Below are positions 29,826 to 52,850 of a stretch of DNA of 64,000 nucleotides, in pieces. This stretch comes from Lobosporangium transversale. Its lineage: Eukaryota. The stretch is from assembly GCF_002105155.1 (NCBI RefSeq), contig NW_019028992.1, positions 682,001 through 746,000 of the forward strand, given 5' to 3'. The position numbers were made by a program, and so were the translations under genes. Below the pieces are notes generated by a model, which saw only the letters and a list, made by a program, of their open reading frames with translations, made no database searches and was not told the origin of the DNA. Position 1 is the first letter of the stretch, and each line of letters begins with the position of its first letter.

Positions 29826-32358
29826 TCACTTTTTGCACATCAGGGAACACTGTAATTTCAATGCGGTCAAGGTTGTGTTTGTCTTGAGTGCCTTTGACAG
29901 CGCCAGAGCCCCCTCCACCCCAATTGAGTTGCTCTCCAAACTCAAGATGGTCAGACCTACGTTATCCTCGAGCGCCTCTGACAGCGCCAGCGCTCCTTCC
30001 TTGTCAATCCTGTTGATTTCCAAGTTCAAGGTGGCCAACGTTGTATTAATCTTGAGTGCTTCTGATAGATACAAAATTCCTCCATATAGAATTGAGTTGA
30101 AATCCAAGATCAATGTGGTCAACGCCGTGTTAGTTTTGAGTGCCTCTGACAGTGCTTTGACTGCCAGACCCCCAATTGAACTATACCTCAAGTTCAATGT
30201 GGTCAGGGTCGTGTTAGCCTTGAGTGCCTTTGACAGTGCCACAATCGCTTTATCCCCGATTATTTTGCAACTAAAGTCTAAAGAGTCAATGTCGTATTTG
30301 TCTTTGACAGTGCTAGAGCTCCTTCTCTTCCGAATGAGTCGTACTCCAAGTCCAAAGTAGATAAGGTCGTGTTAGTGTCGAGTGCCTTTGATAAGGCCAG
30401 GATCCCTTCTTTCCCAATTAGATTGCCCCTCAGGTTCAATGTGGTCAAGGTCTTGTTAGCCCCAAGTGCCTCCGATAATGCAAGAGCCCCTTCTTTTGAA
30501 ATCGAGTTGTGCTCCAAGTTCAAGGTGGACAAAGCCATATTAGTCCTAAGCGCCTCCGACAATGCCAGAGCTCCTTCATTCCCAACTGAGTTGCCCTTCA
30601 AGCTTAAGGTCGTTAAAACTGTGTCCGTCTTAAGTAAATTTACAAGTAATTGAAAATTACTAGCTCCAATCCTTTGAGGTTTCATCTCAATAGTTAACTT
30701 ATGAAGGTCTGATGACCTTTTGTGTTGTAAACTGGGGATCTTCATGAGATTGGGAGGTAGGACAATATGGATCGATCTTATCTTGCTAAGCTCTATGATA
30801 CGAACAAGTGCTTCATATCGCGAGGATGTTGAAAGTAGTTTCCACGATGCTTCTCGAAAACGTCCAAGCTCAAGTCGAAGAATCGATACACTTGACGTCA
30901 TTAAGGCGTTCACAAATGCTTCAAGGTCAGTCTTGGACCAGTCCCAGCTGAATAAGATATCCAACTCGTAAATACGTCTTGCATTGGCCAGCGCATTAAA
31001 GAATTCTCCAGCTCTGGTTCTGGACCTCAATGTGATAATTGCTCTACCAAGATATGAATCATATTTGCCACCATTCATCACCACTGCATTTTCAAATGCT
31101 TTCTGTTCCTTCTCCCTGTATGTCGAACGATAGTGCTCGAAACAAACCCATTTGACATGGCCTGTTTCGGTCGTGATCCTGTACAAGTTGCCAAGTTTCC
31201 TGTCCTCATCGTTGATTCGAAGAAATGTGCCCAGCCGTCGGAGATCAGCTCCTTCAAGTGCCTCATAGTCATCAATTTTATTCATGTTGTCCAAGATTGG
31301 ATACTCCTTAGAGAGCATTTCCATATAATTGATTGAATGATTTAGAGCGGCATCGAGATTTGGGATTGGTGTTAGAGAAGTAGCCAAGGGCATTCCCGCT
31401 TTAAGGAAATGTAAAAGGATGAGCATGTATTTCCCATACTTGCGAAAGAACTCTCTGTTATCTCGGACTTCATATCCCTCATGTTTTATGGATTTGGTTC
31501 TGGCTGCTCTTGCTTGTCTCTGCAGTGTGATCCCCACACTCACATAAGAAATGAAGACGGAACTTGTTCCCCAAAACATTCATTGGATCCCATTTGGTGC
31601 TGTCGACAGGCAGAATTATAAATAGTCGAGGAATTGGATACTCGTGTAGCTCAAAGTTCTGGACGAGGATAGCATCAGCATACTTTTGAAGGGTGGCAAG
31701 TCTATCGAGAGCCTGTTGTTGTAAACTAATTATCATTTCATCCTTCTCTTTAGCCTCCAATTGCGATTTAAGCATCTCGTCGCCCCTCCCTTTGACCTCC
31801 AGCAGCAACTCTTTAATTTGGTCAAGGCTTATCTCGTTATTACGAATAGTAAGAGATGAGTTGGATGATTGAGCCGAGTCTGATAATGATAAATTAGAGT
31901 CCTGAGAAACCGGATTTAGCGACTTTCTCGATATTGGTAAATGGATGACGGTGTCGCTGTTGTTGTTGCTGTTGTTGTTGCTGTTGTTGAGCTGCGGTTT
32001 TCTTGTAATGACGTCTAGAATCTTGTTAGGATAGAATGCAATGCGTGGAGGCTCGATTCTAACAAGATAAAAACATCTGTCAAATTGGCTGTCTCATTTT
32101 TCTTTCTAAAGCAATTGATAAGGCATGGCATGATAAATAATATACCTACCTGTTGCCATTAGAGTCTATAAGAAACGGGATGGGATGTCCATCCAATTTG
32201 AATCACAGTGCATCCGGAAACACGTCTCGAATGTCTTGCAAACTCACGTAGAATGACGAGTCGCCATTGCTTGTGGAGGTGGAAGCAGTTCTGACACAAA
32301 CTTCTTCAATGATGTTGTCGCCTGCCTCTCGGAATTGTTGGTATTGATGTTCTGTCAT
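29826..32358 (-). pseudogene. RNI-like (NLRC3-type) leucine-rich-repeat gene, pseudogenised
   Basis: ATG 32358 MTEHQYQQFRE..LQDIRDVFPDAL*FKLDGHPIPF has an in-frame TGA at 32203-32205; intron ~32150-32059; LVQNFELHEYPIPRLFIILP; frameshift near 31480 (NQIH../KHEGYEVR); 28-aa LRRs (TLTTLNLxxNSIGxEGALALSEALKTN) with another frameshift near 30290-30250. Confidence 0.85.
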
Positions 32359-33481: not shown

Positions 33482-33664
33482 ATGCCTCTCTTCAAGTCCA
33501 ACAAGAACAGGTCCAAGTCTGCGACTTCTACTCCGGTGCAGACTCCTCGCTCTTCCATGCAGGCACCACGCTTTAATCAGTCCAGCAAGATGACCCGTGA
33601 CGAAGCCCTCAAGGCCCTCATGACCAATTCGATGAGCAACCTCGCAAGCCCAGGTGTTATTTAG
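33482..33664 (+). CDS. Small protein (60 aa), M[P/S]LFKS family, copy 1
   Basis: TATAAATA at 33326, ACAATG start context, GC-richer coding island in AT-rich DNA; homologous to 38622..38834. Confidence 0.7.
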   Translation: MPLFKSNKNRSKSATSTPVQTPRSSMQAPRFNQSSKMTRDEALKALMTNSMSNLASPGVI

Positions 33665-36193
33665 AACATAAATTAGACCTCAAGTTCTTTTGCGTTTCGA
33701 TACCCGTTTCTCTCTCTCTTTTTCTCTCTCCATTTTTTTAATAGTATACTTGCAATTACATATTAGCATTAATACGATAATAATAAATTATATAATATGT
33801 AAAAGATGTCTTTCATTCATTAGTCTGTAAGCAAGCAGCGGCTGTAGTACCAATGATGAATGGTTTCAATTGAAATGCTCGACTGTACGTGGGAATGTGG
33901 ACCTGTGTCCCATAATTTTAAAGATTTAAAACCTTCTCAGAGCGTTGTTTTACATTTTTCGATTGCTGGCATGCACCTATTCTTTGTTCAATTTTTTTTT
34001 TTTTTTTTATTCTTCTCGTGGCACAGTGTATGGTAATACATTGCAAAACATGAGTTGGTGGGTGCGGAACGGCGGCCGATGTTCTTGAATTCATGTACTC
34101 TTATGAATGAAAGAAAGAAAAAAATTGCTCCGTTATGATCGTTCTTGTTCTTCACTAGCTTGTTCCATTTCCTCGGGTCGGATTCTTTTTTCTCTTCTTT
34201 TTCTTGTAACAAATCTAGGATTCATACTCAAGGCAAATCCTAAGAGCATAATTTTCTTCTGTACTGAAGAGGGAGAACAAGGGAAAGAAGAAAGGACTGT
34301 ACATGGGATAACAAAAGGGACAAGTATATATTAAGGAATGGTTCATTGTCCATATATCAAAGCATCTCAAGCATCAAGCGAATCACATGCCTCTATCTTT
34401 CAGTGCTTTCCTAGCGATGTCACGTCTTTTATGTCTACGAACCCAGCAAAGTTTACATCAAAATCCGCGCAAGTCCAGACTCCTGACAATTAATCAAACC
34501 ACCAAAGCTGTTGACATTACAGTCAAGATCATGGAAAAGTCCGAAGTTTCCGGTCTCATGTTGTTGAGTATCCGCCAATCTTGCTCATTGTGTAGGAATG
34601 GGCGCGCGCGCAGCAGTCCGCTGTTATCCAAGCTTAAATGTCCAGTATTTAAAAACAATTCAATATCACATCGCCCCTCCTGTATTCCCTTATTTATTCA
34701 TGTCTGCCAACATCTCAACAAACCGAGACATTTAAGTGTGTGTTCAAGCCTCTAGCTACTTTGTTTTCTTCCTTTTTGCCTACCTTTTTGGTTCACCGAT
34801 GAGCCAATTACTATAACATTTAGGATGGACATATTTGATAGCAACATTCACGCTGCCTACTTAAACTTTAGTAGACTCATATTCTCATTCCCAATGCTTA
34901 TCGTGTGTTAACGAAATAACGCCATATCGTAATCTGTTAGGATCAGAGCTGAATCTTGTATGTCCAGAACATATTAATTCATTGTTTACATTTCTTTCTA
35001 GTGTATTTATTCAGGAAACAAAAAAAAAAAAAAAAAAAGCCAATCAACCAATCAACAAAAGTTTATAGCTATGAACCAAGAATGCTGTCTCAGGGCTGGC
35101 AAATGTCTGTCTCAGAAGAGCATGCGCAAATGATCTTTGGCCTTACTCCTTGAAAAAAAGAAAAAAATAAAATTCAGGCACTCTTTAGCTTCTAAAGTAG
35201 GAATAGATCAAGGAACAAGATGGAATTTGTGTTTTTTATTTTATTCTATTTGAATATATCTATTCAATGCTGATACAGAAGGAACAAGAGTAAGTTTTTT
35301 TTTTTTTTTTTTTTTTACTTGATTATATCTGTTCAATATACATACACCAATGTTAAAAAAAATATGTACATGTACATGTAGTTAAACGGCGATCTAAGAG
35401 ATCCAGAACAGCCGATAATTTTTTCTTTAATTCTTTTTGTACAAAAACCACCTTGTACGCCTGTCACGTCTTATACATGTAACAATAGAGAGAGAGCACA
35501 TTCATGTACATAATCGTTCCTATTGTTCTATCTTACTATAAGGTCTTCTCGAGAGCATGAAAGCCACCTTAAAAAAGGCAGGTACATAGACTTACCACAG
35601 CCATCTCCGTGAAATGTGCGTAGACATCAGAAACCAATATGAACCATGGGCCTCAGTCCGAGACACAGCGCAAGGATCAATGCACGGCGATAATAAAATT
35701 CTAATCCTGTTTTCTAAAACCATCCATGCATCTGTGCATGCTCTCTTTTGCTTGTTTTGTGAAACAACAAGTGTCTGTGCACAAATCATTTTTGCCTGTT
35801 GAATAATCAGCCAATGTGTTACTCGTACGAGAGCCATGTAAAAAATAAAGTTTTCAGGGCGGACACTTTGGTTTTGGTGCGCACGTCCACCACTTTGTAG
35901 AACTTTTGGTTCCACACTCTGTACTCCCTACACACAATTTCTGTCGGCATGTTTCTCATGGGAGGCAGCACAAATCCTCCGTTGTAGAACATCTTGTTCC
36001 TTGTTCCCACTAGATTGGACCAAATGATCGGATTAGCAACAAAAAAAAATTCAGAAAATATGCGTGCGTCCAAGAAACATCCCGTTGCACAACAGCATGC
36101 AGTATGCACGGAGACACCCTCGTGGTAACCAAAGTAGATCTTCATTGAACTTGTGTTTCTGGCCTCCCCTTCCTCTCTTCCTTTAGGACCACT

Positions 36194-36200
36194 TATAAAA
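36194..36200 (+). promoter_or_regulatory. TATA box of the repeat-peptide precursor gene
   Basis: TATAAAA followed by a CT-rich leader, ~210 bp before ATG 36403. Confidence 0.6.
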
Positions 36201-36402
36201 AGGACACATTTCCCTCCCAAATTTTGTTCTTCACTCAAGCAGTCTTCTCCAATTCCCTCCAACTCCATCTCAAGCAAAAGAAAAAAAAAAAGCTTTCCAA
36301 GCTAACTTTGCTCTTCTCACTCTTACACATACTCCTTTTTTTTTATTCTTTATCCTCTCACTCTCACAACCACACTTGATACCTTTAATTATAAAAATAA
36401 AA

Positions 36403-37080
36403 ATGAAAATCCAAACTACTCTCCTTTTCTCCATCGCTGCTTCCATCGCCGCTGTTCAGGCTCTTCCTATTAAGCCTGAAGCTCAATATGCAGGTGGCCA
36501 ACGTTATCGCCCCGTGATGAACATTGAGCAGGAGGCTGCTGAGCCTGAAGCTCTGTACGCTGGCGGCAGTCGCTATCGCCCAGTCATGAATATTGAGCAG
36601 GAGGCTCAGTACGCTGGTGGCCAACGCTACCGCCCAGTCATGAACATTGAACAAGAGGCTACAGAACAAGAAGCCCAGTACGCAGGTGGTCAGCGTTACC
36701 GCCCCGTGATGAACATTGAACAGGAGGCTGCTGAGCCTGAAGCTCAGTACGCTGGTGGCCAACGCTACCGCCCAGTCATGAACATTGAACAAGAAGCTAC
36801 AGAACAAGAAGCTACAGAACAAGAAGCCCAGTATGCTGGTGGCCAACGCTACCGCCCAGTCATGAACATTGAACAAGAAGCTACAGAACAAGAAGCCCAG
36901 TACGCAGGTGGTCAGCGTTACCGCCCCGTGATGAACATTGAACAGGAGACTACTGAGCCTGAAGCCCAGTACGCTGGTGGTCAACGTTACCGTCCCGTCA
37001 TGAACATTGCGCAAGAAGCCACAGAACAAGAGGCTCAGTTCGCTGGCACAAGTCCCCCTCGCCCTGTCACAGCAGCATAA
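36403..37080 (+). CDS. Secreted multi-core repeat peptide precursor (225 aa; KEP/RiPP/pheromone-precursor-like)
   Basis: Signal-peptide-like MKIQTTLLFSIAASIAAVQA|LP; 8 near-identical cores [Q/L]YAGG[Q/S]RYRPVMNI[E/A]Q plus terminal variant QFAGTSPPRPVTAA; acidic spacers EA, EAAEPEA, EATEQEA; synonymous variation between repeats. Confidence 0.88.
   Translation: MKIQTTLLFSIAASIAAVQALPIKPEAQYAGGQRYRPVMNIEQEAAEPEALYAGGSRYRPVMNIEQEAQYAGGQRYRPVMNIEQEATEQEAQYAGGQRYRPVMNIEQEAAEPEAQYAGGQRYRPVMNIEQEATEQEATEQEAQYAGGQRYRPVMNIEQEATEQEAQYAGGQRYRPVMNIEQETTEPEAQYAGGQRYRPVMNIAQEATEQEAQFAGTSPPRPVTAA
36478..37077 (+). repeat. Coding tandem array, 9 units of ~54-84 bp
   Basis: Unit approximately GC(T/C)CAGTACGC(T/A)GGTGG(C/T)CA(A/G)CG(C/T)TACCGCCC(A/C)GT(C/G)ATGAACATTGAACA(A/G)GA(A/G) plus 0-2 15-bp spacer modules. 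Confidence 0.95.
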
Positions 37081-38621
37081 ATGAGAGTATCAACAGCAAC
37101 AACAACAGCAACAACAGCATCAGCAACATTAATTACGGCGACACCTATTACTCTTATTTATTGCAAAAAAACTTCTTAATAGAGGATGAATGGGGTCCTA
37201 TGAGAAGCTGGACCTTCTCGAATTCCCACTATACCACATCTGCCATAAACATAGTCCTACTTTTTCCAACATTAATAATATAGTCTTTTCATAATAAATA
37301 TGTTCTTCAAAAAAAAAAATTCTTATGTGTGTTTGTACAAGATAAGGGCTTGGTATCAAAGGCATAAAGACAGATAGTCAGGTAAATAGTTTAACAAGTG
37401 GAGAGAGAGAGAGACAAGGAAGAGTAAGGAAAAAAAAAAAAAAAAAAAAAAAAAAGTGTTGTCTGTGAGAGACTGTGTCAGAGATGGAACTGTGCACTGT
37501 GACACAGTCAATGCAATGATATTGACTTTTTTATTTTATTTTATTTTATTTCTTTCGTTTCCTCATATTTATTGCTGAAGGGGATGGGTGAGATGAATGA
37601 GTGTTGGAATGAAACATGCAAATTGAAAAGATTGCAATGACAAGGTGAATATCCTCATTCGCTCGACATGTGTTTGACACCACAGTCAACAAAAGACATA
37701 CCATCACAGCCATGTTGCCGCGTAAAATGTGGCGCCATGCCTGTTTATAATCAAGCTATATGCTGTTTATCGCCATGACTAATGCCGAGAAGTGGAAAGA
37801 GGAAGAGATCGAGTCAATATCCAGACTAGAATATCATGATCTTTAATCTGAGTCACAACTATTCTCTTGATGAGGTCTTCGCCGCAGTAAACATTGCCCG
37901 GATATTTCCTAGCAAAGAATAAGCGCTTATAACTGTCAAACTTTTCTGAGTACCGCCAAAAAAAAAAAAAAAAAAAAAAAAAAGCATCAAACAACGATGC
38001 AATACTTTTCAGTAAACCTGCAAACATCCATGGTCTTTGGCTTGGCATTACTTTTATCTTTGAACTGTATTCAACGCCACTAAAAAAGGACCTCTTTTTC
38101 AATGTCTATAGGAAAATAAGGCCGAACAAAGAGAAAGAAGTTCCGAAAGTAAGAAATCTCTTAGACTGTCTTGGCGTTTCTTGGCCTCTTAAAACAAAGT
38201 ACAGGGGCCCTTTGTTAGCTTTGTTTTCATACTTGGTTGAAAGGCCATCTAAAACAAAAGACAATTGGATGCAGTTTACTTTTTCTTGGTGGAGATGGTG
38301 AGATGGTGACAAGTCCGATTTTTGTGTAACTCGATACCCGCAGCAAAGAATGATACATATTGCAACACGCCGAGATCCATCCGGACTGACGTTGGTCTTG
38401 TTTGTTACTCTTGGTGTTTTGTCATTGTTAATTTTGAAGAAGAAAAACATAAAATAATAATGAGCTGACGGACATTTTTTATTTTTTTTTTTCTATAAAA
38501 GCAATCTTCTACCATTCAAAAAGCTATCCTTCAAAAGTCAGCTTCGCAAAAGAGAAACATCGCAGACAAAATCATACCTTGTCAATACAGCTCCCCACTC
38601 ACCTAACTCATATCAAGTACA

Positions 38622-38834
38622 ATGTCGCTCTTCAAGTCTGAAAAGAAAAAGTACATCCCTATCGAGTCAACCGAAGATCAGAAGCCTCGTGACCCAACGC
38701 AAGATTCCTCCCGAAGCACGGTTACGGCCCCTACTACAACACAAACTAATATCCCCATCAAGGACCAGAGTCTTCACTCGACTATCAAGCAAGCCATGAC
38801 CAGCAGTGTAAACAATGCTTTTAATTTGCGTTAA
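38622..38834 (+). CDS. Small protein (70 aa), M[P/S]LFKS family, copy 2
   Basis: TATAAAA at 38494, ACAATG start context; shares M.LFKS.K..ST..Q.PR...Q and a C-terminal [L/I]K..MT.S..N with 33482..33664. Confidence 0.65.
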   Translation: MSLFKSEKKKYIPIESTEDQKPRDPTQDSSRSTVTAPTTTQTNIPIKDQSLHSTIKQAMTSSVNNAFNLR

Positions 38835-39687: not shown

Positions 39688-41776
39688 TTATTCAGCTCCA
39701 ACACCGAGTACACTCTCGCCATCCTTGATCTTTCTCAACGCTTCCAAAACGGGGACGGAGGGGCATCCAGCGGGTGCAAAATGAATAACGAAATCGCCTT
39801 CCGCATAATACTTTGGGAATGTGTTCATGGTATGGTCGTCCTTGTCATAAAGATAGACCTAAACGATAAATAGATGCATATTAAATTAGTCACATAGCAC
39901 ATTGTTTCTTTGAATCTATACAGCCTTTCAAATAAATAAGCAAACAAAACAAAACAGAAACTTACTCCTGGTGCCCACCTAGGGTCAGTCATCACATCCC
40001 AAATGGCGGCCTGCTCATAGCTAGATTTACGGTACCAGCCTACTTTAGTCTGGACTTCATTGAAGAAGCGACGTGTCCAATCTGTGTTCTTGATCAGCAT
40101 GACTCCAGCATTCAACATCTTGTCCTTGACAGGTTTGGCAACGATCAAGCTGATTTCCTGACCACTCTGACTCTTTGTTTCTGCTTCTCGAATGATCTCA
40201 CGCACATCTTTCTCCATGTTTGCAATCACTGCATCCATATCCATCCAGAGCAGCCATTCATAATGAGGAAGTACTTTCTGGATGGCACCGATTTTACCCC
40301 ACACCAACCGACGTCCTCGGAATTCTTCTTGAATAAATTCGGCGGCACGGGCCACAAAGTCGAATCCATATTTGGCAGCATACATGCGTTTGTTCTCCGC
40401 AGATGGAAGTGATGCTTCCGCCATACACATGTCAAAATAGATATAGGAGGATGTCAAGACTGCAACATTTTTCTTTCTGTTGAGGTCAACAGCGCAAGCG
40501 GGGGTGGGCAGAACGCTCAATTTTTCAACAATAGGTATCCAGTCTTCTAACTGGTAGACCTGACCTACTGCCTGTGATGTCGCGTCGACTAACTCAATCT
40601 CATTAACCCACAGTTGTGCTGGACCTTTTATAGCCTTGACAGTCGCAGAAGTTGGGTTGCTGGCAAAATAGAGTGTAGCTGCAGTAAAAATATCGAGCAA
40701 ATGGTGATTTTCTTTGATGGCAACTCGGTTCTTGACAATCTGCTCTGCAATATCATAAGAAGCTATACCAGCAAAAGGTACAGCTGTTATTGATGTTGAT
40801 AAGTCTGCTGGTCTCGATGGCGTTGTAGGGACCACTGATTCACCACCCCAAGTTTGAACAAACCCTGTCATAGAAGCACTCATAGACGCTTTGACACTCT
40901 CCTCTATTTTTGGCAAATTTACAATTGTAGTTGAGTCGAAGATCAAAATTTTCTCGACCTTAATGTTTTGCTCTGGAATAAAAGTTTCCACCTAGATACA
41001 TTGATTAACATTGAAAAAAAAAAAAAAAAAAAAAAAAAATAGAGAGCATTAATAGGATGAATAGGGGTCAAATTAAATACGTATTCTTCAAGAGTGGCGA
41101 TCCATCATTGACGTAAACAAAGTAAAAATAAACTTACCGCCCAAGCCAAAGCATCCCCCCAGATGGCATGTCGATCCGTAACAGTCTTGTTGATGAAAAC
41201 ATGATCATTGTACTCCATAAATTCAGCATAGAGTTCACGGACTTGTCCTTGCATATACTCAGCCGAATGGATTCGAGTCTTGAGCCAGGAAGAAAGGCCA
41301 TGGATATAAAACTTGTAGATGATCTTGCCATCATATTTTTTACAGGGCGTCAAGTTGTTTTTGATCCCAAACACCGTCTGTCGCACCCATTGACGGTTCT
41401 GAATCTGAGTCCAGCTCGAGGGGATCAAAATCAGAGTGTCATACTTTCCAGATGTATTGGGTTCTGTTACTACAGTAGGCTCTGTCACAGTCTTGACCGA
41501 TGATGGTGCTGATGATGGCTGTGATGGAGTACTGGGTTTCTTAATATCATAATCACGGTCATTATCGTCATAGTTATGGCTTGTGTCGCCTTGACCGTCA
41601 CCTTGTTGCTGATGCTGTTGTTGTTGTTGTTGTTGTTGTTGTGGATATTTGTTGTTGTCTACTTCTTTGTTGCTGCCATATGAAGGGCTATTACTGGATT
41701 TATGATATGATAAGACAATGACCAGTATAAAAATAACCGCTGTTATCAAATACAGCTTCTTTGCTTGAACGGCCAT
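39688..41776 (-). CDS. Type II membrane glycosyltransferase: GT31-like N-terminal domain + GT34 (GMA12/MNN10) domain; exons ~41776-41138, 40991-39966, 39858-39688
   Basis: N-terminal TM anchor (KKLYLITAVIFILVIVLSY). C-terminal ENKRMYAAKYG..WGKIGAIQKVLPHYEWLLWMDMDAVI..LNAGVMLIKNTDW..YEQAAIW..GDFVIHFA matches GT34. Confidence 0.85.
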
Positions 41777-42856
41777 TGCCTTTAAGATGGTAATATGAGG
41801 GCAATATGAGGCTGCTAGAAAAGTGAGAAATAGCGAGATAGAAGAGGAGGGAAGGGGGGGGGGGGAAAAAAAGGGAGGAATGAAGCGGAAAAAAGATGAA
41901 TGAGTGCCCATCACCGGGATGTTTGATTTTAATTTAGAGCAAAGTATAAAATATACACTATATTTTATTCTCAAAGCAGTGGTTGCTATAAAACGGTAGT
42001 GAAAGGTTGACGACATCGCCTTTTCTCCTTTTTTTATTATTAAACGCAGACATGTAAAGGCAGAACAAGATAAATGAAGGCATTTCCTTGCTAGATATTA
42101 TCCAATGATGGTTGTGGGATAAAAGCCCATTCAGCCTATAATGGAAAAGGTTTCTTGATAACTCTTTTAAACCTTACACATTGTAAGAGCTATGTGGCTT
42201 AGACGAGTGAATTCTCGCAGTTAAGAGTTTCAAATTTGCGGATTGTTTGTTCGATCTTTTCAAATTTCAAAAGAGGTTAGAGACACTATTGTGTTGAGGC
42301 AAACGGGATTTTTAACAGATGTAAAAAAGCCAGTGAACATCAATCCATCTATCTACTTCGGCTCAATCAATCAATCAATCAAGCCTATCTTTACTACGGA
42401 CATGAGTATCAGCACGGTAGTCAATTGCACAACACCTTCTCGTAATATGTTGGTCATCAGGCTACATCAAAGTTGTTCTTTTATGAGGACTTGATCTAAC
42501 ATTAGGATACAATTCAAATCAGGTCAATTGACATTCAAAAGCTTCAATCTCACGGCTTCCTCACATTACAGTTTCAGTACATTCTTGTAATATACACAAA
42601 ACCTGCATCGACCAACATAATCTCATGGATCAACTTTAAATCTATTAGATTAGCTTTTCAACTAAAGTGGGAATCAATTGAAGGCTGCAAACAGACTTTA
42701 AAGCTTCAGTGAAATCGAAAGCATGCAGGGAATATAAGAAATAACATCCATAAAACGACTTACTATTAGTTGCAAGACCAATTGAACTCATCGCTTGATA
42801 TATCTTTGTCTATCTTTTTTTGTTGGCATTACAACAATCAATCGTTTAGACTAAAA

Positions 42857-52205: not shown

Positions 52206-52850
52206 ATGAAGTCCATTGCTATCTTCGCTGCCGCCGCTCTCATCTCTGCTGTCGCTGCTCAGGACGAGGGCCGTCTCGCTTACTCCGAGCCCGTTCAGTC
52301 CACTGTCTGGACCGCTGGTCAGACTCACACTGTCACCTGGACCAACAACTGCCACGCCGATAACGATAAGGATTTGAACATTGCTCTCTACATCGGTACT
52401 GGTGGAAATAACGGTACTGAGCAGGTCCTTGTCCCAGGTATTGGTGCTATCGGTGTCTTGAACTGCGTTAAGAGCAAGTCCGCCAAGGTCACCCTTCCCG
52501 CTACCTTGACAACCAGCAACTTGTACAGCATCCACGTTGACACTTATCCTCTCCAGTCGTACGGCGGTCCTTTCACCATCAAAGGTGTCGATCCCGTGAC
52601 CCCTCCTGGCCCCTCAGGCGCCCCTGGCCCCTCAGGTGCCCCTGTCCCCTCTGGCGCCCCTGCCCCCTCAGGCGGTGTCTCTGGCGCTCCTGTCCCCACC
52701 TCTACCGTCACTACTACCACCGCTGCTACTACAGCTGGTGCCTCGCCTACGGCTAGCTCTGATAAGAAGGAGGGCGCTGCTGGCTCCCTCAAGACTCTTG
52801 GCGCCACTGCTGCTGTCCTTGCCGCCGCTGTTGGCGCCATGTTCTTGTAA
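52206..52850 (+). CDS. Secreted GPI-anchored Ser/Thr/Pro-rich cell-surface protein (Kre9/Knh1-like N-terminal domain)
   Basis: Signal peptide MKSIAIFAAAALISAVAA; P..STVWTAGQTHTVTW..YGGPFTIKG domain; GPSGAP repeats; small-residue omega region and hydrophobic tail; TATAAAA at 52061. Confidence 0.85.
   Translation: MKSIAIFAAAALISAVAAQDEGRLAYSEPVQSTVWTAGQTHTVTWTNNCHADNDKDLNIALYIGTGGNNGTEQVLVPGIGAIGVLNCVKSKSAKVTLPATLTTSNLYSIHVDTYPLQSYGGPFTIKGVDPVTPPGPSGAPGPSGAPVPSGAPAPSGGVSGAPVPTSTVTTTTAATTAGASPTASSDKKEGAAGSLKTLGATAAVLAAAVGAMFL

What the first reader, a model, noticed from the sequence alone, without database searches (positions are those of the whole stretch)
36403..37080. Secreted multi-core peptide precursor with acidic EA/EP spacers but no Kex2 sites: candidate new fungal RiPP/signalling-peptide system
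Seen: a signal peptide, then 8 copies of [Q/L]YAGG[Q/S]RYRPVMNI[E/A]Q and one divergent core (QFAGTSPPRPVTAA). Every core is preceded by Glu-Ala, and spacers are built from EA/EP/TEQ modules. There is no KR/RR/KK anywhere. Known: ascomycete alpha-pheromone precursors, dikaritin precursors (UstA type) and KEPs share this signal + repeat layout but are released at dibasic sites by Kex2, with Ste13 trimming X-A/X-P dipeptides. Mucoralean mating is known to use trisporoids rather than such peptides. Inference: the cores are released by a different protease, for example after Glu, Asn or Pro, followed by dipeptidyl trimming. This would expose N-terminal Gln (possible pyroglutamate) and give a cationic, two-Tyr peptide QYAGGQRYRP(VMN) with possible Tyr crosslinking or cyclisation. 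It could be a pheromone-like, antimicrobial or host-directed peptide. No DUF3328/UstY or BURP enzyme is visible in the window.
Basis: partly seen in the sequence, partly recalled or inferred. Interest (0 to 1): 0.9.

Follow-up and report, generated by a model that had tools for sequence, protein, structure and literature searches.

The report
Mortierellaceae multi-peptide precursor lacking Kex2 sites
This is a real, transcribed gene of what is likely a Mortierella-type fungus, encoding a likely secreted protein with eight near-identical short repeats that is probably cut into small peptides, although it lacks the paired basic residues that known fungal precursors of this kind are cut at; it has unstudied relatives in three genera.

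Summary
The intronless 225-aa ORF has a signal-like N-terminus, eight QYAGGQRYRPVMN-type repeats plus one degenerate unit, Glu-Ala before all nine, and no dibasic site. The repeats are under strong purifying selection (dN/dS about 0.03). Spliced contigs of one run cover the gene and reveal expressed paralogs. Relatives occur in Lobosporangium, Dissophora and Mortierella.

They keep the leader and an R-x-x-P-V-M-N-[I/L]...E-A block. They do not keep the two Tyr (0 of 13 units) or the first Gln (2 of 13). Spacers are 5-residue modules of mixed parity, so an Asn cut plus Ste13 trimming cannot free all cores. The Dissophora relative has RR inside its unit, so monobasic Kex2 cutting is not excluded. 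No tailoring enzyme was found in the window.

Verdict: a likely multi-copy peptide precursor, a variant of the KEP/alpha-factor layout that both published KEP surveys miss by definition. Processing, product and function are untested.

The parts
36194..36200 (+). TATA-like TATAAAA about 210 bases upstream of the ATG (promoter role inferred)
   Evidence: the heptamer occurs 20 times on the + strand of the window, so weak on its own
36353..37195 (+). Stretch covered by contigs of run X1 (minimum transcript span; contigs do not show strand or ends)
   Evidence: the two end pieces have 0 other letters; the same run skips introns of neighbouring genes and leaves 33704-35208 uncovered
36403..37080 (+). 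Intronless ORF, 225 aa, multi-core precursor
36403..36462 (+). Predicted signal peptide, residues 1-20, ending V-Q-A
   Evidence: hydropathy; helix 3-19; same layout in 3 of 3 relatives with an N-terminus
36463..36483 (+). Short pro-segment L-P-I-x-x-E-A, conserved in relatives
   Evidence: L21, P22, I23, E26 and A27 invariant in 4 of 4 sequences
36484..36522 (+). Core 1 QYAGGQRYRPVMN (C-terminal boundary uncertain); 10-residue spacer follows to 36552
36553..36591 (+). Core 2 LYAGGSRYRPVMN; 5-residue spacer to 36606
36607..36645 (+). Core 3; 10-residue spacer to 36675
36676..36714 (+). Core 4; 10-residue spacer to 36744
36745..36783 (+). Core 5; 15-residue spacer to 36828
36829..36867 (+). Core 6; 10-residue spacer to 36897
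36898..36936 (+). Core 7; 10-residue spacer to 36966
36967..37005 (+). Core 8; 10-residue spacer to 37035
37036..37077 (+). Degenerate terminal unit QFAGTSPPRPVTAA, without the conserved Arg and M-N-I block
36607..37035 (+). Higher-order duplication, 222-base period, 93% match (units 3-5 resemble 6-8)
37091..37128 (+). CAA/CAG-rich tract just after the stop; a similar tract follows the stop in relative L062
37293..37298 (+). AATAAA, candidate polyadenylation signal
   Evidence: inferred role

Best explanation
The gene is transcribed and encodes a likely secreted, predicted-disordered precursor that is probably cut, at sites other than paired basic residues, into about eight copies of a short linear peptide that would most likely act as an extracellular signal. 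Shown: the ORF, the repeats, purifying selection, transcript cover, paralogs and relatives in three Mortierellaceae genera. Inferred steps: (1) signal peptidase cuts after Ala20. (2) An unidentified endopeptidase of the late secretory pathway or the cell wall frees each core at or just before the Glu-Ala that ends every x-E-[Q/P]-E-A module; at most one Ste13-type step on E-A is needed. (3) The conserved P-V-M-N-[I/L] block belongs to the core upstream of it, either as the peptide's constant C-terminal part or as the recognition site for the C-terminal cut. The product would be QYAGGQRYRPVMN (13 aa, net +2) or the untrimmed 18-mer ending E-A (net 0). (4) Seven of nine units here could gain pyroglutamate, a local feature rather than a family one. 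The protease and the receptor or target are unknown.
For: Signal-like leader and L-P-I-x-x-E-A conserved in 4 of 4 sequences. Homology holds without the signal peptide: local scores 126, 106, 77 and 72 against shuffle maxima 46, 51, 61 and 41; 0 of 1000 shuffles reached them. Cores are exact while spacers grow in whole 5-residue modules. RR replaces EA before the first core in P0010. The last unit keeps M-N-[L/I] plus an acidic tail before the end in P0006, P0008 and L062, and in a paralog contig read by hand, while the final EA relaxes in two of them. AlphaFold gives no fold (mean pLDDT 42 and 48). No Pfam family above its cut-off and no PDB match. Precedent for maturation of a secreted fungal pro-peptide by a cell-wall serine protease: Qsp1/Pqp1 (PMC7537855).
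Against: No peptide has been observed; every processing step is inferred. The Dissophora relative has four RR pairs inside the proposed core, where Kex2 would cut it in two. The window's own last unit lacks the M-N-I block. Units were anchored by a pattern on M-x-hydrophobic, so the conservation counts for those positions are partly circular. The family sample is small: 4 homologous genes plus one chimeric fragment. Transcript evidence is one run, contigs only, with RNA status guessed by the tool. Atlas models resemble beta-solenoids at low confidence.
Confidence: 0.55

Rival explanations
1. It is a cryptic KEP: Kex2 or a yapsin-type protease cuts after the conserved Arg (RR in Dissophora, single Arg here). 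The products would be in another register, either a short QYAGGQ-type piece after a second cut at E-A, or a peptide starting at Y-R-P-V-M-N.
For: Arg five before the Met in 17 of 21 units (9 of 13 in relatives). P0008 splits at four RR pairs into three like internal fragments and so fits the published KEP rule by my reading. The fragments start L-P, as does the signal-cleaved N-terminus. Products ending at single Arg were seen when KEPs were expressed in Pichia (PMC9769878).
Against: The second Arg is not kept even between repeats of one gene (L062: R-V and R-R). P0010 units lack the Arg. Kex2 favours acidic or small P1'/P2' residues and disfavours basic ones (PMC2515848), whereas here Y-R follows. 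An Arg-only cut would leave variable-length spacers in the middle of the product.
Confidence: 0.2
2. The protein is not cut but acts whole, as a secreted repeat protein that self-assembles (amyloid or beta-solenoid type) on the hyphal surface or in the matrix.
For: Atlas structure matches are mostly beta-solenoid or repeat proteins (model pLDDT 0.57 and 0.47). The protein is rich in Gln, Gly, Tyr and Asn. No canonical cut site exists.
Against: AlphaFold predicts disorder. All Atlas rows are under the tool's bar. Periods of 18, 23 and 28 residues are uneven, net charge is -14, and copy number varies from 4 to 9 among genes. RR can replace EA at a core start.
Confidence: 0.13
3. It is a RiPP precursor: P-V-M-N-[I/L]-x-x-E-A is a recognition sequence for a dedicated protease or macrocyclase, and the variable Gly- and aromatic-rich part becomes a cyclic or modified product.
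For: Conserved flank with variable core across genes, and even within P0006 and P0008. The same logic describes sponge multi-core precursors (PMC10945851). The flank is kept after the last core in relatives.
Against: No DUF3328, BURP, oxidase or peptidase hit in 239 frames of the window; neighbours are housekeeping genes. Tyr is absent from 4 of 13 homolog units and Asn from 4 of 13. No whole genome was held, so unlinked enzymes could not be sought.
Confidence: 0.12

Closest known systems
Kex2-processed repeat proteins, KEPs (Le Marquer 2019 PMC6339444; Umemura 2020 PMC7329392; Vogt 2022 PMC9769878)
   Same: Signal peptide plus three or more near-identical short repeats, no folded domain; present in Mucoromycota; Gln-starting cores can be pyroglutamated.
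   Different: No dibasic site in this protein, so both survey pipelines exclude it. Lobosporangium transversale, whose proteome holds relative P0006, scored 0 KEPs. One relative, Dissophora P0008, fits the rule by my reading.
Ascomycete alpha-pheromone precursor (MFalpha; Kex2, Kex1, Ste13)
   Same: Glu-Ala directly before each core; 13-residue candidate core; linear product expected.
   Different: No KR before the EA; spacers are pentamers, not dipeptide runs; in relatives an acidic tail follows the last core. No MF_alpha Pfam hit; Atlas similarity to an MF_alpha cluster is only 0.79.
Dikaritin precursors (ustiloxin type)
   Same: Signal peptide, repeated Tyr-containing cores, acidic flanks.
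   Different: No Kex2 sites; no DUF3328 gene found in the window, against an average distance of 3.09 genes in the survey; Tyr not conserved across relatives.
Cryptococcus Qsp1 pro-peptide matured by Pqp1 (PMC7537855)
   Same: Secreted fungal pro-peptide matured outside the cell by a cell-wall serine protease into a short linear signal.
   Different: One 11-residue peptide; no sequence comparison was made; single-copy layout is recalled, not read.
Sponge PRMP multi-core precursors (PMC10945851)
   Same: Signal peptide, conserved recognition sequence and variable cores in tandem.
   Different: Animal; cores end in Pro and are cyclised; the recognition sequence contains Lys-Lys. No homology tested.

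Membership tests
KEP | N-terminal signal peptide | tested here: met
   hydropathy, V-Q-A motif and predicted helix; SignalP not available
KEP | At least 3 tandem repeats of at least 8 residues | tested here: met
   8 repeats of 18-28 residues
KEP | Repeats separated by KR, RR, KK or RK | tested here: not met
   0 dibasic sites in the window protein; relative P0008 has 4 RR
KEP | Actual cleavage by Kex2 (including monobasic) | not testable with these tools
   needs a kex2 mutant or in vitro digestion
Alpha-pheromone precursor | X-A/X-P dipeptide run from the endoprotease site to the core | tested here: not met
   only 1-3 dipeptides walkable; 0 of 8 internal spacers fully walkable from the Asn
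Alpha-pheromone precursor | MF_alpha family match | tested here: not met
Alpha-pheromone precursor | Cognate Ste2-type receptor and mating role | not testable with these tools
   no genome held
Dikaritin RiPP | DUF3328/UstYa gene near the precursor | tested here: not met
   0 hits in 239 of 239 frames of 70 aa or more across the 64-kb window
Dikaritin RiPP | Conserved aromatic residue used for crosslinking | tested here: inconclusive
   an aromatic residue lies near each core start, but Tyr occurs in 9 of 13 homolog units and two Tyr in 0 of 13
Asn-cleaved/cyclised precursor (AEP type) | Invariant Asn or Asp at the C-terminal cut | tested here: inconclusive
   Asn in 17 of 21 units; Lys, Asp or Ser elsewhere; presence of such an enzyme not tested

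The most novel reading that the evidence does not exclude
Mortierellaceae have their own ribosomal peptide system: a dedicated non-Kex2 protease or macrocyclase reads the conserved P-V-M-N-[I/L]-x-x-E-A block and releases a species-specific library of short, possibly cyclised peptides. These would serve as pheromone-like or host-directed signals in a fungal lineage where such peptides are uncharted and where dibasic-site surveys cannot see them.
Probability: 0.15. Interest if true: 0.85.

Novelty: new variant of a known kind. Interest (0 to 1): 0.55.

Why it matters
Both genome-wide surveys of fungal multi-copy peptide precursors require dibasic sites. This expressed, conserved, multi-gene family falls outside them, in a lineage where the role of such peptides is stated to be unresolved (PMC6339444). 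It gives exact candidate masses for peptidomics. It also offers a natural comparison, since one relative has RR in its unit and others do not, that would show whether fungi have a second route for releasing secreted peptides. If it is only monobasic Kex2 cutting, it is a modest extension of KEPs.

Tried and rejected
No whole genome is held, so protease, glutaminyl cyclase, DUF3328 and receptor genes and paralog loci could not be searched. The word-index search with the full protein found nothing at E<=10 among 7996 candidates. With alignment A1 it returned only 2 seeds. With A2 it returned 3 weak hits: P0015 was kept only for its first about 28 residues, because the rest matches an unrelated protein (P0018); P0016 and P0017 were set aside as unrelated repeats. 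Of 12 phmmer hits, 3 are relatives; 4 of the other 9 were read and rejected as long unrelated repeat proteins, and 5 were not read. The search for related loci found no relative in metagenomes (39 pattern matches) or prokaryotic genomes (15 matches). Its pattern needs two P-V-M-N motifs, so divergent members are missed. Atlas searches gave only scores under 0.9. No PDB sequence match. Pfam hits to the protein are below their cut-offs. The run search listed no holder on record as RNA; X1 was read as RNA from its skipped introns, and contig depth was not used to rank expression. An Asn cut plus pure Ste13 trimming was rejected on parity. I could not support a recalled claim that fungi lack legumain: the table in PMC4357240 does not mark family C13 absent in fungi. 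Bevan 1998 on Kex2 P2 specificity was not held. No complex prediction was run, since no binding is claimed. Look-ups of earlier findings by sequence or place showed nothing.

Full report
Observation. The window holds an intronless ORF at 36403-37080 (+) of 225 residues. After a 20-residue hydrophobic leader ending V-Q-A and a 7-residue segment L-P-I-K-P-E-A come eight units of [Q/L]YAGG[Q/S]RYRPVMNI[E/A]Q and one degenerate unit. All nine follow Glu-Ala, and no two basic residues are adjacent. The copies differ mostly at silent positions: 164 synonymous against 21 non-synonymous pairwise codon differences over 16 codons, dN/dS 0.028 over 18 codons, and no amino-acid change in Y-R-P-V-M-N-I. 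A 222-base higher-order duplication accounts for units 3-8. The copies are not independent, but a neutral DNA repeat would not show this pattern.

Expression and paralogs. One run (X1) holds the stretch. The tool only guesses it is RNA, but its contigs skip three CT..AC intervals in neighbouring minus-strand genes and leave 33704-35208 uncovered. Contigs with no differences cover 36353-36633 and 36919-37195. At 80% likeness, 8 of 15 laid contigs are under 95% alike. Their loose ends, translated by hand, read as at least one paralog, probably two or three: H-E-A before a QYAGGS core, an M-N-V-E-P-E-A spacer, and a stop after E-Q-D-A with another 3' UTR. Contigs do not give level or strand.

Relatives. 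phmmer over 1.84 billion representatives gave 12 hits. Three are true relatives: P0006 (Lobosporangium transversale), P0008 (Dissophora ornata) and P0010 (Mortierella sp. AM989), all named hypothetical. A metagenome pattern scan added one partial Dissophora-type gene, L062, from 123 loci read. Similarity survives removal of the signal peptide (0 of 1000 shuffles reach the score for each of four). No relative turned up in prokaryotic genomes. The window is therefore taken to be a Mortierellaceae fungus; that is inferred from these relatives and from intron-split eukaryotic neighbours, and the species was not determined. The protein itself is not in the 15-billion collection, though a neighbour is, so the family is probably under-annotated.

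What is conserved. Over 21 complete units in five genes (three partial units and the P0015 fragment left out), Met is present in 20, I/L/M two residues later in 20, Pro two before in 18, Arg five before in 17 and Asn in 17. The Met, Asn and I/L/M counts are partly circular because units were anchored on that pattern. The first half of the core varies: among the 13 homolog units none has two Tyr, 9 have one and 2 begin with Gln. The leader L-P-I-x-x-E-A is invariant at five positions in 4 of 4 sequences. In P0010 an RR pair stands before the first Gln-starting core, where the others have E-A, which supports E-A as the core's start. P0006, P0008, L062 and the paralog contig end with M-N-[L/I] and an acidic tail after their last core. 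P0008 is labelled partial, so its stop is assumed. The block thus seems to belong to the core before it. The window's own last unit has lost it.

Processing. The spacers after Asn are 5, 10, 10, 10, 15, 10, 10 and 10 residues, built of x-E-[Q/P]-E-A pentamers, and only one to three X-A/X-P dipeptides can be walked back from any core. One fixed upstream cut followed only by Ste13-type trimming cannot give all cores the same start. A protease cutting at or just before E-A can. The C-terminal end is open: after Asn, after E-A, or after the conserved Arg. The last option is a real rival, because P0008 has RR at that place four times and products ending at single Arg were reported for KEPs in Pichia (PMC9769878). 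Against it, the second Arg varies within L062, and Kex2 prefers acidic or small residues after the cut (PMC2515848). AlphaFold finds no fold beyond the signal helix. Atlas models hint at beta-solenoids, but at low confidence and under the tool's bar.

Context. Pfam scans of all 239 frames of 70 aa or more found housekeeping genes (Ndc80, succinyl-CoA ligase, epimerase, ribosomal and proteasome subunits), an MFS transporter, an LRR protein and a GT34 glycosyltransferase. They found no DUF3328, BURP or secreted-peptidase family. There is no visible cluster, and unlinked enzymes could not be sought.

Comparison and literature. It works like a KEP or alpha-factor precursor in layout but fails the defining dibasic test. 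L. transversale scored 0 KEPs in the 2020 survey. PVMN occurs in none of the 3 supplementary files held for that paper nor the 4 held for the 2019 survey; those files may not hold all peptide sequences. Ten full-text searches showed no title or abstract start describing this family; subscription papers are not covered. Papers seen: PMC7329392 (abstract, passages, methods section 13, supplement search), PMC6339444 (passages, section 24, supplement search), and passages of PMC9769878, PMC7537855, PMC10945851, PMC2515848 and PMC4357240. The rest were seen as search listings only.

Verdict. This is a real, expressed, selected member of a small unstudied Mortierellaceae gene family, most likely a precursor of short secreted peptides released without dibasic sites (0.55). 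Monobasic Kex2 or yapsin cutting (0.20), an uncut self-assembling protein (0.13) and a modified or cyclic RiPP (0.12) remain. It is a new variant of a known kind. The claim is directly testable by peptidomics.

Noticed in passing
window 33482-33664 (+) and 38622-38834 (+): Two small ORFs (60 and 70 aa) with no Pfam family flank the precursor gene and start alike (M-[P/S]-L-F-K-S; 12 of 27 identical, E 4e-4). Both are covered by contigs of run X1, the first by a very deep one (depth cannot rank expression). The second is in public protein sets. No link to the precursor shown.
   Followed up: partly
window 37091-37128 and L062 just after 140: Both family genes have a CAA/CAG-rich tract within about 15 bases after the stop codon; shared ancestry or a general trait of these genomes.
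   Followed up: no
run X1 contigs laid on window 36502-36759: Expressed paralogs with Ser for Gln in the core, one with a Phe-Val variant near the core start, at three different contig depths.
   Followed up: partly
window 29829-32093 (-): LRR_6-repeat protein with a long N-terminal region, NLR-like in layout; not studied.
   Followed up: no
window 39722-42097 (-): GT34 galactosyltransferase gene with a Gln-rich N-terminal region; two introns skipped in a contig of X1.
   Followed up: no
window 52206-52847 (+): Secreted-looking Kre9/KNH-like protein with an 18-base Pro/Gly/Ser repeat and a hydrophobic tail, GPI-anchor-like (Pfam below cut-off).
   Followed up: no
window 35210-35346: Non-coding two-copy 69-base repeat upstream of the gene; a contig of X1 runs off it at 35250.
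   Followed up: no
L016 (several places): Regularly spaced identical DNA repeats with unique spacers, CRISPR-array-like; a chance match to my pattern.
   Followed up: no
protein P0015: The public Dissophora model joins about 28 residues of this family to an unrelated sequence shared with P0018, probably a gene-model or assembly chimera.
   Followed up: partly
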